Positions 748 to 999 of a stretch of 4,384 nucleotides of DNA are shown in pieces (the first letter of the stretch is position 1; every line of letters begins with the position of its first letter). Position numbers and translations under genes: made by a program. The DNA is taken from the IMG/VR virus record IMGVR_UViG_2703718872_000002. One strand, written 5' to 3'. The stretch is from a virus. Lineage: Duplodnaviria; Heunggongvirae; Uroviricota; Caudoviricetes. Under the pieces are notes generated by a model. It did no database searches and was not told the origin of the DNA. It saw only the letters and a program-made list of their open reading frames with translations.

Positions 748-999
748 ATGGGATACGGTTTACTGGATATTGCGAATCAGTCACGTCGAGAGGCATTACA
801 GGGAATAAGTGACGCCGACAGGCGACGTGAAGAAATTGAGGCTGCTAACAAGCAGATGGCGGCGCAACAGAAAGCGCAGAACAAGCAGAATATCGGTACG
901 GGCATTGGTACGGGGGCGGCTATGGGCGCTGCCGTTGGTGGTCTCCCCGGTGCGGCTATTGGTGCTGTCATAGGTGGTCTTGCTGGCTCGTTGTTTTAA
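748..999 (+). CDS. small (83 aa) protein with charged N-terminal half and C-terminal glycine-zipper hydrophobic helix; putative membrane-inserting protein
   Basis: ATG at 748 to TAA at 997-999 with a strong SD. N-terminal half is charged (…SRREALQGISDADRRREEIEAANKQMAAQQKAQNKQN…). C-terminal 35 aa (nt 892-996) read IGTGIGTGAAMGAAVGGLPGAAIGAVIGGLAGSLF, a run of G/A at i, i+4 spacing typical of glycine-zipper transmembrane helices. Confidence 0.75.
   Translation: MGYGLLDIANQSRREALQGISDADRRREEIEAANKQMAAQQKAQNKQNIGTGIGTGAAMGAAVGGLPGAAIGAVIGGLAGSLF

What the first reader, a model, noticed from the sequence alone, without database searches (positions are those of the whole stretch)
748..999. 83-aa protein with a charged N-terminal helix and a C-terminal glycine-zipper segment; candidate membrane-permeabilising or oligomeric membrane component
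The last ~35 residues (IGTGIGTGAAMGAAVGGLPGAAIGAVIGGLAGSLF) form an almost pure Gly/Ala/Ile/Val segment with repeated G/A at i, i+4. That architecture is found in small membrane-inserting proteins that self-associate, some of which form pores or are toxic when expressed. The N-terminal half is strongly charged and helical-looking. It has the strongest RBS in the window. It could be a channel-like ejection component, a lysis or abortive-infection effector, or a structural membrane anchor.
Basis: partly seen in the sequence, partly recalled or inferred. Interest (0 to 1): 0.65.

Follow-up and report, generated by a model that had tools for sequence, protein, structure and literature searches.

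The report
Small glycine-zipper phage DNA-ejection protein
This 83-residue protein of Shiga-toxin phages, labelled "bacteriocin" in databases, is most likely a small protein carried inside the virus particle that helps build the membrane channel through which the phage injects its DNA.

Summary
ORF 748-999 encodes an 83-aa protein with a polar N-terminal helix, an uncharged 35-residue glycine zipper (8 in-register GxxxG), and the strongest ribosome-binding site in the window.

The window is the end of the late operon of a short-tailed Stx-converting phage (933W/phi24B/ArgO145 type). The gene is the third of a five-gene cassette (218, 148, 83, 420 and ~2800 aa, the last a "polyvalent" giant). 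In phi24B the other four are abundant virion proteins absent from the cryo-EM map, so they are internal (ejection) proteins.

About 70 remote relatives (76-101 aa) keep the same architecture. All seven remote neighbourhoods examined keep the same slot, before a ~500-aa protein and a 2200-3600-aa giant.

The glycine-zipper tail is homologous to the extreme C-terminus of P22 ejection protein gp7 (hhalign 94%, E 1e-7; two relatives pass Pfam's P22_gp7 threshold). phi24B proteomics detected the protein in purified virions but discarded it because of its "bacteriocin" label.

The most likely role is a small ejected protein whose glycine zipper inserts into the host envelope as part of the DNA conduit. 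The bacteriocin, holin and toxin readings are not supported. Packaging, ejection and membrane insertion remain inferred.

The parts
2..289 (+). 3' part of cassette gene 1 (218 aa in ArgO145 gp48; phi24B gp51), running off the left edge of the window. Its C-terminal region has a polar stretch followed by a Gly-rich segment (LVGAGLGAVGAYAM...GGNGGGGG).
   Evidence: PHROG 611; annotation in ArgO145; virion protein at about 22-27 copies in phi24B; weak paralogy to the 83-aa family, hhalign 64-66%.
292..738 (+). Cassette gene 2, 148 aa (ArgO145 gp47; phi24B gp50).
   Evidence: PHROG 596; virion protein at about 36-44 copies in phi24B, not seen in the cryo-EM map; pN/pS 0.06.
737..743 (+). Shine-Dalgarno sequence AAGGAGG of the 83-aa gene. 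It overlaps the TAA stop (736-738) of gene 2 and lies 4 nt before the ATG.
   Evidence: Duplex with the anti-SD sequence at -12.1 kcal/mol, the strongest in the window.
748..999 (+). The finding: cassette gene 3, 83 aa (ArgO145 gp46 'bacteriocin'; phi24B gp49).
   Evidence: (PHROG 594).
748..891 (+). Residues 1-48: conserved M-x-Y-G-L N-terminus and a polar, charged helix.
   Evidence: AF2 helix with pLDDT about 90 for residues 10-40; family consensus; the first 31 aa are at least 99% identical in 174 of 187 phage records.
892..996 (+). Residues 49-83: uncharged glycine zipper in two stretches around a conserved G-G-(x)-P turn (residues 64-67, nt 937-948), ending in a conserved free ...G-S-L-F C-terminus. 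Homologous to the C-terminus of P22 gp7.
1010..2272 (+). Cassette gene 4, 420 aa (ArgO145 gp45; phi24B gp48).
   Evidence: PHROG 601; virion protein at about 30-37 copies in phi24B; homologs of 435-615 aa follow the small gene in every remote locus.
2318..2345 (+). Terminator-like GC hairpin plus T-run between gene 4 and the giant gene.
   Evidence: conserved in ArgO145. Function not tested.
2357..4384 (+). 5' part (676 codons) of cassette gene 5, the giant LPD5 'polyvalent' protein (2793 aa in ArgO145; phi24B gp47). It contains its own short glycine-zipper-like segment at residues 405-432.
   Evidence: PHROGs 616, 26030 and 20690; annotation; weak Gly-zipper hits; abundant virion protein proposed as an ejection protein.

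Best explanation
ORF 748-999 encodes the smallest member of a conserved five-gene internal-virion ('ejection') protein cassette of short-tailed Stx phages and their relatives.

Most likely it is packaged in the head in a few to a few tens of copies together with the 218-, 148-, 420- and ~2800-aa cassette proteins. It would be expelled through the tail at the start of infection. Its uncharged C-terminal glycine zipper would then insert into a host envelope membrane, packing through its GxxxG faces with itself and/or with the Gly-rich segments of its partners. In this way it would form, line or anchor the membrane-embedded part of the conduit that carries the DNA and the giant protein. The polar N-terminal helix would be the handle that binds a partner, both for packaging and in the conduit.

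Shown: the gene is real, conserved and under purifying selection; its place in the cassette is invariant; its C-terminal module is homologous to the C-terminus of P22 ejection protein gp7; peptides were found in purified phi24B virions.

Inferred: packaging, ejection, membrane insertion, oligomerisation, and which membrane is targeted.
For: (1) Context. The gene lies in the late structural operon after the head, adaptor, nozzle and fibre genes, as the third of five genes ending in the LPD5 giant.

(2) Synteny. The same slot is kept in all seven remote neighbourhoods checked, at 34-51% identity. These are Aeromonas phage phiARM81mr and six metagenomic contigs, each with ~200 aa / ~130 aa / 76-101 aa / 435-615 aa / 2232-3570 aa.

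(3) Partners are internal virion proteins. In phi24B the four neighbours are abundant virion proteins (about 19-44 copies) with no density in the cryo-EM map, and the authors propose the giant as an ejection protein (bioRxiv 10.64898/2026.04.10.717836).

(4) Detection. The phi24B orthologue gp49 was detected in the purified-virion hydrolysate (6 counts; 13 over all samples) and was set aside 'based on functional annotation' only. By the authors' own counts-per-length formula this is about 6 copies per virion. That exceeds gp54 (2.9, accepted as structural) and adaptor-2 gp62 (2.1 estimated, 12 true). Only four tryptic peptides of 7-13 aa are detectable, because the zipper is one 37-aa hydrophobic peptide.

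(5) Homology. 16 of 68 family members hit Pfam PF25688 P22_gp7. P0146 (31.2 bits) and P0142 (29.8 bits) exceed the 28-bit cut-off and align end to end with profile positions 149-228 of 230. The family profile against a gp7 profile gives 94% probability, E 1e-7, score 47, anchored at both C-termini (...PGAAIGAVIGGLAGSLF* against ...PWGAAIGGGIGLLGSLF*). Column-shuffled controls give a mean score of 17 and a maximum of 29; OsmB scores 26 and colicin V 21.5.

(6) P22 genetics. gp7 is an essential ejection protein at about 12 copies per virion, required for K+ release and DNA entry (PMC10461980; PMC8402733). A gp7 fragment ending at residue 154 still assembles into particles, so residues 155-229, the part this family matches, are not the packaging determinant (PMC8402733).

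(7) Precedents. T7 gp6.7 (88 aa) joins gp14 in the outer-membrane channel (PMC11784390). N4 gp52 (150 aa) forms pores in bilayers and is encoded next to a 644-aa tunnel protein and a 3500-aa giant (PMC13434306).
Against: The window protein itself reaches no Pfam threshold (Gly-zipper_YMGG 28.1 against 28.9; P22_gp7 not listed at E<=1).

The demonstrated gp7 homology covers only about 34 low-complexity residues. The N-terminal half alone shows nothing.

The other cassette proteins show no detectable link to P22 gp7 or gp20 or to T7 gp14.

Six counts equals the signal of the likely contaminants Lom and Bor and of an unrelated 83-aa early-region ORF. A membrane-active protein could also co-purify in vesicles.

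No cryo-EM density is assigned to it.

AF2 gives low confidence for the zipper (pLDDT 54-66), and the gp7 model is unusable (mean pLDDT 42).

The Bcep22-like phage JC1 has no statistically detectable homolog in this slot.

No dedicated transmembrane predictor was available.
Confidence: 0.6

Rival explanations
1. Assembly factor or chaperone. The small protein helps load or solubilise the hydrophobic and giant cassette proteins in the procapsid, or acts as a scaffold or plug in the tail channel as T7 gp7.3 does. It has no membrane role after ejection.
For: Invariant position between cassette partners. Low apparent abundance in virions. T7 gp7.3 is a small protein that scaffolds nozzle assembly. 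The strong RBS implies higher synthesis than the amount recovered in virions would suggest.
Against: The most conserved part is an uncharged glycine zipper shared with the C-terminal region of P22 gp7, and that region is dispensable for gp7 assembly into particles. A chaperone role does not explain a conserved free ...GSLF C-terminus. The low count is expected from the peptide properties.
Confidence: 0.17
2. Membrane protein acting in the producing or lysogenic cell, for example a lysis-timing, superinfection-exclusion or abortive-infection/toxin function. Its presence in virion preparations would be due to co-purifying membrane vesicles.
For: Hydrophobic glycine zipper. Its count in the phi24B preparation equals those of the outer-membrane proteins Lom and Bor. 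Weak similarities to SLATT-type 2TM effector and DUF456 membrane families in single relatives.
Against: The gene is not near the lysis cassette, which lies about 18 kb upstream. No PADLOC match has an E-value below 0.007, and those listed are to unrelated large proteins. It is embedded by tight coupling in a late virion-protein operon in every relative, rather than being a variable moron. It is not among the genes found expressed in phi24B lysogen cultures, although that screen was not exhaustive (PMC3342100).
Confidence: 0.1
3. Secreted bacteriocin or microcin, as the current NCBI/RefSeq product name implies: a glycine-rich pore-forming peptide exported to kill competitors.
For: The product name 'bacteriocin' appears in RefSeq phage records and for E. 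coli, Aeromonas, Yersinia and Salmonella proteins. Weak hits to Bacteriocin_IIc (18.2 bits), MccV and E492 microcin.
Against: All these scores are far below the curated cut-offs (27.1, 27 and 50 bits). The sequence has no double-glycine leader. No exporter or immunity gene lies in any of nine neighbourhoods. hhalign to colicin V gives 16% against 94% for gp7.
Confidence: 0.02
4. Not a functional gene: a chance ORF in Gly/Ala-rich DNA.
For: Low-complexity composition. Overlapping ORFs of 54-89 aa occur in other frames.
Against: pN/pS 0.15. Full-length conservation at 35-50% identity across about 70 clusters. The strongest RBS in the window. Peptides detected by mass spectrometry.
Confidence: 0.01

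Closest known systems
P22 ejection protein gp7 (Pfam PF25688, 'DNA transfer protein'), C-terminal region of about residues 149-229
   Same: Shares the terminal motif P-x-G-A-x-I-G-x-x-x-G-x-L-x-G-S-L-F-COOH and a preceding Gly/Ala-rich stretch (hhalign 94%). Two family members pass the Pfam threshold over their full length. It is encoded in a virion ejection-protein operon directly upstream of a mid-size protein and then a large one.
   Different: It is only 83 aa and lacks gp7 residues 1-148, including the OpdA-cleaved leader and the 21-154 segment that binds procapsids. The N-terminal helix has no demonstrable similarity to gp7. The partner proteins show no detectable homology to gp20; gp16 was not compared. 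The cassette has five genes and ends in a ~2800-aa polyvalent giant.
T7 gp6.7 (88 aa), the fourth core/ejection protein
   Same: A very small internal virion protein that is ejected and joins the outer-membrane part of the channel. This is the best functional precedent for size and role.
   Different: No sequence similarity (hhalign 0.1%) and no glycine zipper.
N4 gp52 / DEV gp73 (small outer-membrane-channel ejection proteins encoded next to a giant virion protein)
   Same: An operon of a small membrane-active protein, a ~500-650-aa tunnel protein and a ~3500-aa giant ejected protein. gp52 forms pores in bilayers.
   Different: N4 gp52 is 150 aa and is predicted to use an amphipathic helix rather than a glycine zipper. 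No sequence comparison was made here, so the analogy is organisational only.
Glycine-zipper domains of outer-membrane lipoproteins (Pfam Gly-zipper_YMGG PF13441, Gly-zipper_Omp PF13488, Rick_17kDa_Anti 'glycine zipper 2TM' PF05433; e.g. OsmB)
   Same: The same GxxxG-repeat, two-stretch layout. 43 of 68 members hit PF13441 at E<0.01. The window protein scores 28.1 bits against a 28.9 cut-off.
   Different: No signal peptide or lipobox. It has a polar helical N-terminus, the zipper sits at the extreme C-terminus, and the gene is phage-structural.
Class IIc bacteriocins and microcins (colicin V, microcin E492)
   Same: A Gly/Ala-rich hydrophobic segment. This is the source of the database name.
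   Different: Scores are below threshold. There is no leader, exporter or immunity gene.

Membership tests
Pfam PF25688 P22_gp7 (P22-type ejection protein gp7) | Score at or above the gathering threshold (28 bits) | tested here: not met
   The window protein is not listed at E<=1. Relatives P0146 (31.2 bits) and P0142 (29.8 bits) do pass, and 16 of 68 members hit at E<0.01.
Pfam PF25688 P22_gp7 (P22-type ejection protein gp7) | Conserved C-terminal glycine-zipper tail ending ...GSLF-COOH | tested here: met
   hhalign of family profile against gp7 profile: 94%, E 1e-7, score 47. Shuffle controls reach a maximum of 29.
Pfam PF25688 P22_gp7 (P22-type ejection protein gp7) | Full-length architecture of about 230 aa with the N-terminal procapsid-binding region (residues 21-154) | tested here: not met
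   The protein is 83 aa. The N-terminal half shows no similarity to gp7. The upstream 218-aa protein also shows none (3%).
Pfam PF25688 P22_gp7 (P22-type ejection protein gp7) | Encoded within the operon of internal virion/ejection proteins | tested here: met
   The virion status of the neighbours comes from phi24B proteomics.
Pfam PF25688 P22_gp7 (P22-type ejection protein gp7) | Present in virions and released before the DNA; required for DNA delivery | tested here: inconclusive
   Peptides were found in purified phi24B virions, but at the level of known contaminants. Release and essentiality are not testable with these tools.
Glycine-zipper membrane domains (PF13441, PF13488, PF05433) | HMM score at or above threshold | tested here: not met
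   28.1 bits against a 28.9 cut-off for PF13441, and 15.9 against 25 for PF13488. The relative P0152 passes both.
Glycine-zipper membrane domains (PF13441, PF13488, PF05433) | At least three in-register GxxxG repeats in an uncharged segment | tested here: met
   Eight GxxxG pairs; shuffle p about 0.001. G72 is invariant, and G56, G68 and G76 are at least 90% conserved.
Glycine-zipper membrane domains (PF13441, PF13488, PF05433) | Lipoprotein signal peptide or lipobox, as in the YMGG/OsmB/SlyB-type members | tested here: not met
   The N-terminus MGYGLLDIANQSRRE has no hydrophobic core and no Cys (sequence).
Class IIc bacteriocin / microcin (current database name) | HMM score at or above threshold | tested here: not met
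   Bacteriocin_IIc 18.2 against 27.1; MccV 12.4 against 27; E492 microcin 14.5 against 50.
Class IIc bacteriocin / microcin (current database name) | Double-glycine leader, and a neighbouring exporter and immunity gene | tested here: not met
   The sequence has no leader motif. There are no such genes in nine neighbourhoods.
Holin / lysis protein | Located in the lysis cassette; transmembrane domain(s) with a charged C-terminal tail | tested here: not met
   The spanin and lysis genes lie about 18 kb upstream in ArgO145. The C-terminus is uncharged.
T7 gp6.7 / gp14 / gp7.3 small core proteins | Sequence homology | tested here: not met
   hhalign 0.1-0.2%. One family member gives a weak T7_gp14 Pfam hit, E 0.0015.

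The most novel reading that the evidence does not exclude
The functional 'business end' of P22-type gp7 has been freed as a separate 80-aa gene in phages that inject a giant polyvalent protein. On this reading the free glycine-zipper tail ending in ...GSLF is a shared, self-sufficient membrane-piercing or pore-lining element of podophage ejectosomes. It would form a glycine-zipper helical pore, as the VacA and bacteriocin-type zippers do (comparison from my own knowledge). It would be recruited into the capsid not by gp7's own packaging domain but by its polar helix binding another cassette protein. Expressed alone, it would permeabilise membranes.
Probability: 0.3. Interest if true: 0.6.

Novelty: new variant of a known kind. 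Interest (0 to 1): 0.42.

Why it matters
Short-tailed Stx phages spread Shiga-toxin genes, yet how they cross the cell envelope is largely unknown. This gene is carried by 384 of 5,426 complete E. coli genomes and by all 186-187 related phage records.

It is named "bacteriocin" in RefSeq, and that name led the only virion proteomics study to discard its peptides as contamination. Re-reading it as an ejection-cassette protein corrects an annotation that propagates through STEC genomes.

It also adds a fifth candidate to the phi24B ejectosome. The protein is a very small, synthesisable, mutable handle (35 residues, with invariant G72) for testing how a podophage conduit enters a membrane. The link to the gp7 C-terminus suggests a module shared between P22-like phages and giant-protein podophages that otherwise show no detectable similarity in their ejection proteins.

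Tried and rejected
- **Structure of the small protein.** AF2 on a 68-sequence alignment gave one long helix that is confident only for residues 10-40. The zipper scored pLDDT 54-66, so a hairpin and a single helix cannot be distinguished. I ran no fold search because a lone helix gives meaningless matches.
- **Structure of gp7.** AF2 on a gp7 homolog alignment gave mean pLDDT 42, which is unusable. The helix break it shows at T213/P214 carries no weight.
- **Solved structures.** PDB sequence-profile searches with the family and with gp7 found nothing real.
- **Back-translated locus search.** It failed on the family alignment because there is no conserved 7-10-column stretch.
- **tblastn.** BLAST's low-complexity filter masks residues 32-83, so only the N-terminus scores. 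A remote member found nothing.
- **Hydrophobicity scale.** My simplified Hessa-scale sum did not separate a holin transmembrane segment from this one (4.3 against 4.2), so I dropped it as uninformative.
- **JC1 gp67.** This 196-aa virion protein of the Bcep22-like phage JC1 looks similar by eye (polar helix, G/A-rich stretch...GSLLKKIF) but has no statistical support.
- **Is gp7 split across several cassette genes?** The 218-aa protein against gp7 gives 3%. The 420-aa family against P22 gp20 gives 0.3% and has no Pfam hit. The 218-aa homologs have no informative Pfam hit.
- **Fusion proteins.** P0073 and P0075 look like read-through or frameshift products with the downstream gene, so they are not reliable Rosetta-stone evidence.
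- **Unreadable preprint.** The September 2026 P22 in-situ preprint (10.64898/2026.09.03.749273) appeared in searches but could not be opened. What it says about the gp7 C-terminus is unknown to me.
- **Defence-system models.** PADLOC gave nothing meaningful.
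Full report
**1. The observation**

The window carries an ATG-initiated ORF at 748-999 on the + strand.

Residues 49-83 are uncharged and made of 12 Gly, 8 Ala, 4 Ile, 3 Leu, 2 Val, 2 Thr, and one each of Met, Pro, Ser and Phe. Glycines recur every fourth residue from position 52 to 80, giving 8 GxxxG pairs and 16 small-xxx-small pairs. Shuffling the same 35 residues gives means of 3.5 and 10.9; only 0.1% and 0.01% of 10,000 shuffles reach the observed values. Spacings of 4 and 8 stand out from all others.

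Residues 1-48 carry 8 basic and 7 acidic residues. AlphaFold2 on a 68-sequence alignment predicts a helix there, with pLDDT about 90 for residues 10-40.

The Shine-Dalgarno sequence AAGGAGG (737-743) overlaps the upstream stop codon. It pairs with the anti-SD sequence at -12.1 kcal/mol, the best value anywhere in the window, against -5.9 to -8.8 for the neighbouring starts.

**2. Where the window comes from**

Megablast finds 186 phage records that cover at least 80% of the window at 80-96% identity. All are short-tailed Stx-converting phages or close relatives, including 933W, ArgO145, PA28 and Min27.

In ArgO145 the window maps to the very end of the late operon, after the terminase, portal, capsid, adaptor, nozzle and fibre genes and just before attR. 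Five genes lie there in tight succession: gp48 (218 aa), gp47 (148 aa), gp46 (83 aa, product "bacteriocin"), gp45 (420 aa) and gp44 (2793 aa, "LPD5 domain-containing protein"). All five belong to PHROGs of unknown function.

The gene occurs in 384 of 5,426 complete E. coli genomes.

**3. It is a real, conserved family**

Against ArgO145 (88% nucleotide identity) the gene has pN/pS of 0.15. All amino-acid changes are conservative ones inside the zipper. The first 31 residues are at least 99% identical in 174 of 187 phage records.

An exhaustive phmmer search of 1.84 billion cluster representatives returned 86 hits. About 70 of these are proteins of 76-91 aa that align end to end at 32-52% identity.

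Their alignment shows a fixed architecture: M-x-Y-G-L, a polar helix, then G-x-G-A-G-x-G-A-M-x-G...G-G-P-x-G-A-x-I-G-A-x-x-G-x-L-A-G-x-L-F at the C-terminus. G72 is invariant, and G56, G68 and G76 are at least 90% conserved. Named sources include E. coli, Salmonella, Yersinia, Aeromonas and Vibrio.

**4. The gene neighbourhood is invariant**

I examined seven remote neighbourhoods:
- Aeromonas phage phiARM81mr;
- six metagenomic contigs holding members at 34-51% identity.

In every one, the small gene sits in the same slot. It follows a protein of ~196-243 aa and one of ~122-186 aa. It precedes a protein of 435-615 aa and then a giant of 2232-3570 aa that carries LPD1, LPD5, LPD38, InPase or RadC domains. 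All of this lies downstream of podovirus head, SU10-type adaptor and tail genes. A moron, toxin or bacteriocin would not keep such a position.

**5. What the neighbours are**

A 2026 preprint on phi24B combined cryo-EM with virion proteomics (bioRxiv 10.64898/2026.04.10.717836). It found the orthologues of the four neighbours as virion proteins: gp51, gp50, gp48 and the giant gp47. Estimated copy numbers are about 22-27, 36-44, 30-37 and 19-23. None appears in the reconstructed capsid or tail, and the authors propose that gp47 is an encapsidated ejection protein.

The same data set contains the orthologue of the finding, gp49 ("E. coli bacteriocin", 47581-47838). It gave 6 counts in the total hydrolysate and 13 counts overall. 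[quoted passage not shown]

Applying the authors' own normalisation (counts per residue, with portal set to 12 copies) gives about 6 copies per virion. This is my arithmetic on the numbers. That is more than gp54 (2.9), which was accepted as structural. It is also more than adaptor-2 gp62 (2.1 estimated), which the structure shows at 12 copies.

The count is probably an underestimate. Trypsin yields only four peptides of 7-13 residues, and the whole zipper is one 37-residue, 3.2-kDa hydrophobic peptide.

There is a caveat. Lom, Bor and an unrelated 83-aa early-region ORF gave 5-6 counts as well. Detection alone therefore does not prove that the protein is packaged.

**6. The link to a known ejection protein**

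Scanning all 68 aligned members against Pfam gave the expected weak glycine-zipper hits: PF13441 in 43 members, PF13488 in 19 and Bacteriocin_IIc in 18. It also gave PF25688, "Bacteriophage P22 DNA ejection protein gp7", in 16 members.

Two members exceed that model's 28-bit gathering score: P0146 (81 aa, 31.2 bits) and P0142 (89 aa, 29.8 bits). They align over their whole length with profile positions 149-228 of 230.

Profile-profile comparison of the family with a 16-sequence gp7 alignment gives 94% probability, E 1e-7 and score 47, anchored at both C-termini:
- window protein: ...GGLPGAAIGAVIGGLAGSLF*
- P22 gp7: ...SSTPWGAAIGGGIGLLGSLF*

Shuffling the zipper columns, which preserves composition, gives a mean score of 17 and a maximum of 29. 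The match is therefore specific to gp7 and is not a general glycine-zipper resemblance.

The match is also limited. The N-terminal half of the family shows nothing against gp7 when tested alone, and the window protein itself does not reach the Pfam threshold.

**7. What is known about gp7**

gp7 is one of the essential P22 ejection proteins, at about 12 copies per virion. It is released after adsorption and is required for K+ efflux and DNA injection. It has been proposed to build the virion-proximal part of the conduit (PMC10461980; PMC8402733).

Particles made by the amber mutant 7-amH1375 (stop at codon 155) contain the N-terminal fragment. The authors conclude that gp7 binds procapsids through residues 21-154 (PMC8402733).

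The region this family matches is therefore the part of gp7 that is not needed for packaging. By inference, since gene 7 amber mutants are conditional lethals, it is needed for function. The authors note that partial function of the fragment has not been tested.

**8. Mechanism proposed**

Putting these together, the 83-aa protein is most likely a small internal virion protein that works in genome delivery:
- It would be packaged with its four cassette partners and expelled at the start of infection.
- Its uncharged zipper would insert into a host membrane.
- The GxxxG faces would let helices pack closely, either with copies of itself or with Gly-rich segments in its partners.

Such Gly-rich segments exist in the 218-aa protein, whose residues 131-187 resemble the family at 64-66% hhalign probability. 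The giant also has one, at residues 405-432.

The conserved G-G-(x)-P in the middle of the zipper suggests two short helices, either a re-entrant hairpin or a kinked helix. Neither structure model was confident enough to decide.

The confidently helical polar N-terminus is the obvious candidate for binding a partner. The protein lacks gp7's own packaging segment, so how it enters the capsid is an open question.

Small ejected proteins that join membrane channels have precedents:
- T7 gp6.7 (88 aa) is a fourth core protein ejected with gp14 (PMC11784390).
- N4 gp52 (150 aa) forms pores in bilayers. It is encoded beside a 644-aa tunnel protein and the 3500-aa virion RNA polymerase (PMC13434306).

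Neither T7 gp6.7, gp14, gp7.3 nor gp13 shows sequence similarity to this family.

**9. Rivals**

- **Bacteriocin (the database name).** It rests on sub-threshold composition-driven hits: Bacteriocin_IIc 18.2 against 27.1 bits, MccV 12.4 against 27, and E492 microcin 14.5 against 50. There is no leader, exporter or immunity gene.
- **Lysis, exclusion or abortive-infection role.** The fixed position in a virion-protein cassette argues against it. So do the distance from the lysis genes, the absence of defence-system matches, and the absence of any report of lysogen expression (PMC3342100).
- **Assembly chaperone or tail-channel scaffold.** This is the most serious rival. It would explain the low recovery from virions. 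It does not explain why the conserved part is a membrane-type zipper shared with the assembly-dispensable end of gp7.

**10. Novelty and verdict**

Podophage ejection proteins are a known kind, and some relatives of this protein already fall within Pfam's P22_gp7 model. What appears undescribed is a stand-alone ~80-aa protein made of a polar helix plus the gp7-type terminal zipper. It is a fixed member of a five-gene cassette that ends in a giant polyvalent protein. It is also misnamed "bacteriocin", a name that has already caused real peptide evidence to be set aside.

I rate it a new variant of a known kind, with moderate interest.

Noticed in passing
window 2318-2345 (also L001:22318-22342): A strong intrinsic-terminator-like hairpin (GCCCGAC-N6-GTCGGGC followed by T7) sits in the 84-nt gap between the 420-aa gene and the giant gene, and it is conserved in ArgO145. 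It might attenuate transcription into the 8.4-kb giant gene, yet the giant is abundant in phi24B virions.
   Followed up: partly
window 2..289 and L001:19633-20286: The first cassette protein (218 aa) has a C-terminal polar stretch plus a Gly-rich segment that resembles the 83-aa family (hhalign 64-66%, family 5-61 against residues 131-187). It then carries a poly-Gly run (GGNGGGGG). It may be an ancient paralogue of the small protein.
   Followed up: partly
window 3569-3652 (giant protein residues 405-432): The giant LPD5 protein contains its own short glycine-zipper-like segment (EGAALGAAMGAPFGAVAGY) with weak Gly-zipper_YMGG/OmpA hits. It is a possible membrane-contact or partner-packing site.
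   Followed up: no
protein P0110 (713 aa, from the exhaustive search): The helix-plus-zipper module is embedded at residues ~469-536 of a large protein. It is followed immediately by a Hint/intein-like motif (...GGLVGLFS|CFTAGTPILMADGS). Autocleavage at that Cys would release nearly the same free ...GLF C-terminus that the family and P22 gp7 share.
   Followed up: no
L004:4862-6495 (Aeromonas phage phiARM81mr): A 'retron-type RNA-directed DNA polymerase' and a '23S rRNA-intervening sequence protein' are inserted among the virion structural genes upstream of the tail fibre. This may be a diversity-generating retroelement.
   Followed up: no
L001:18941-19081 (ArgO145): A MokW-like host-killing (hok/mok-type) gene and a Lom outer-membrane gene lie just upstream of the ejection cassette. 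They separate it from the tail-fibre genes.
   Followed up: no
phi24B 16908-17156 (supplement of bioRxiv 10.64898/2026.04.10.717836): An unannotated 83-aa early-region ORF gave 6 counts in the virion hydrolysate, the same as gp49. It is either a genuine contaminant or another overlooked small virion protein, and it limits what the gp49 count can prove.
   Followed up: no
window 1010-1060 against 748-800: The 420-aa protein starts MSGFAQGLLAGF...RRKELGLREAQLAQQQ, and JC1 gp68 starts MANYGIGIGAFAQGLMQG. This is loosely reminiscent of the small protein's MGYGLLDIA...RREEIEAANKQ start. A shared N-terminal feature of cassette proteins, such as a packaging or partner signal, is possible but untested.
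   Followed up: no
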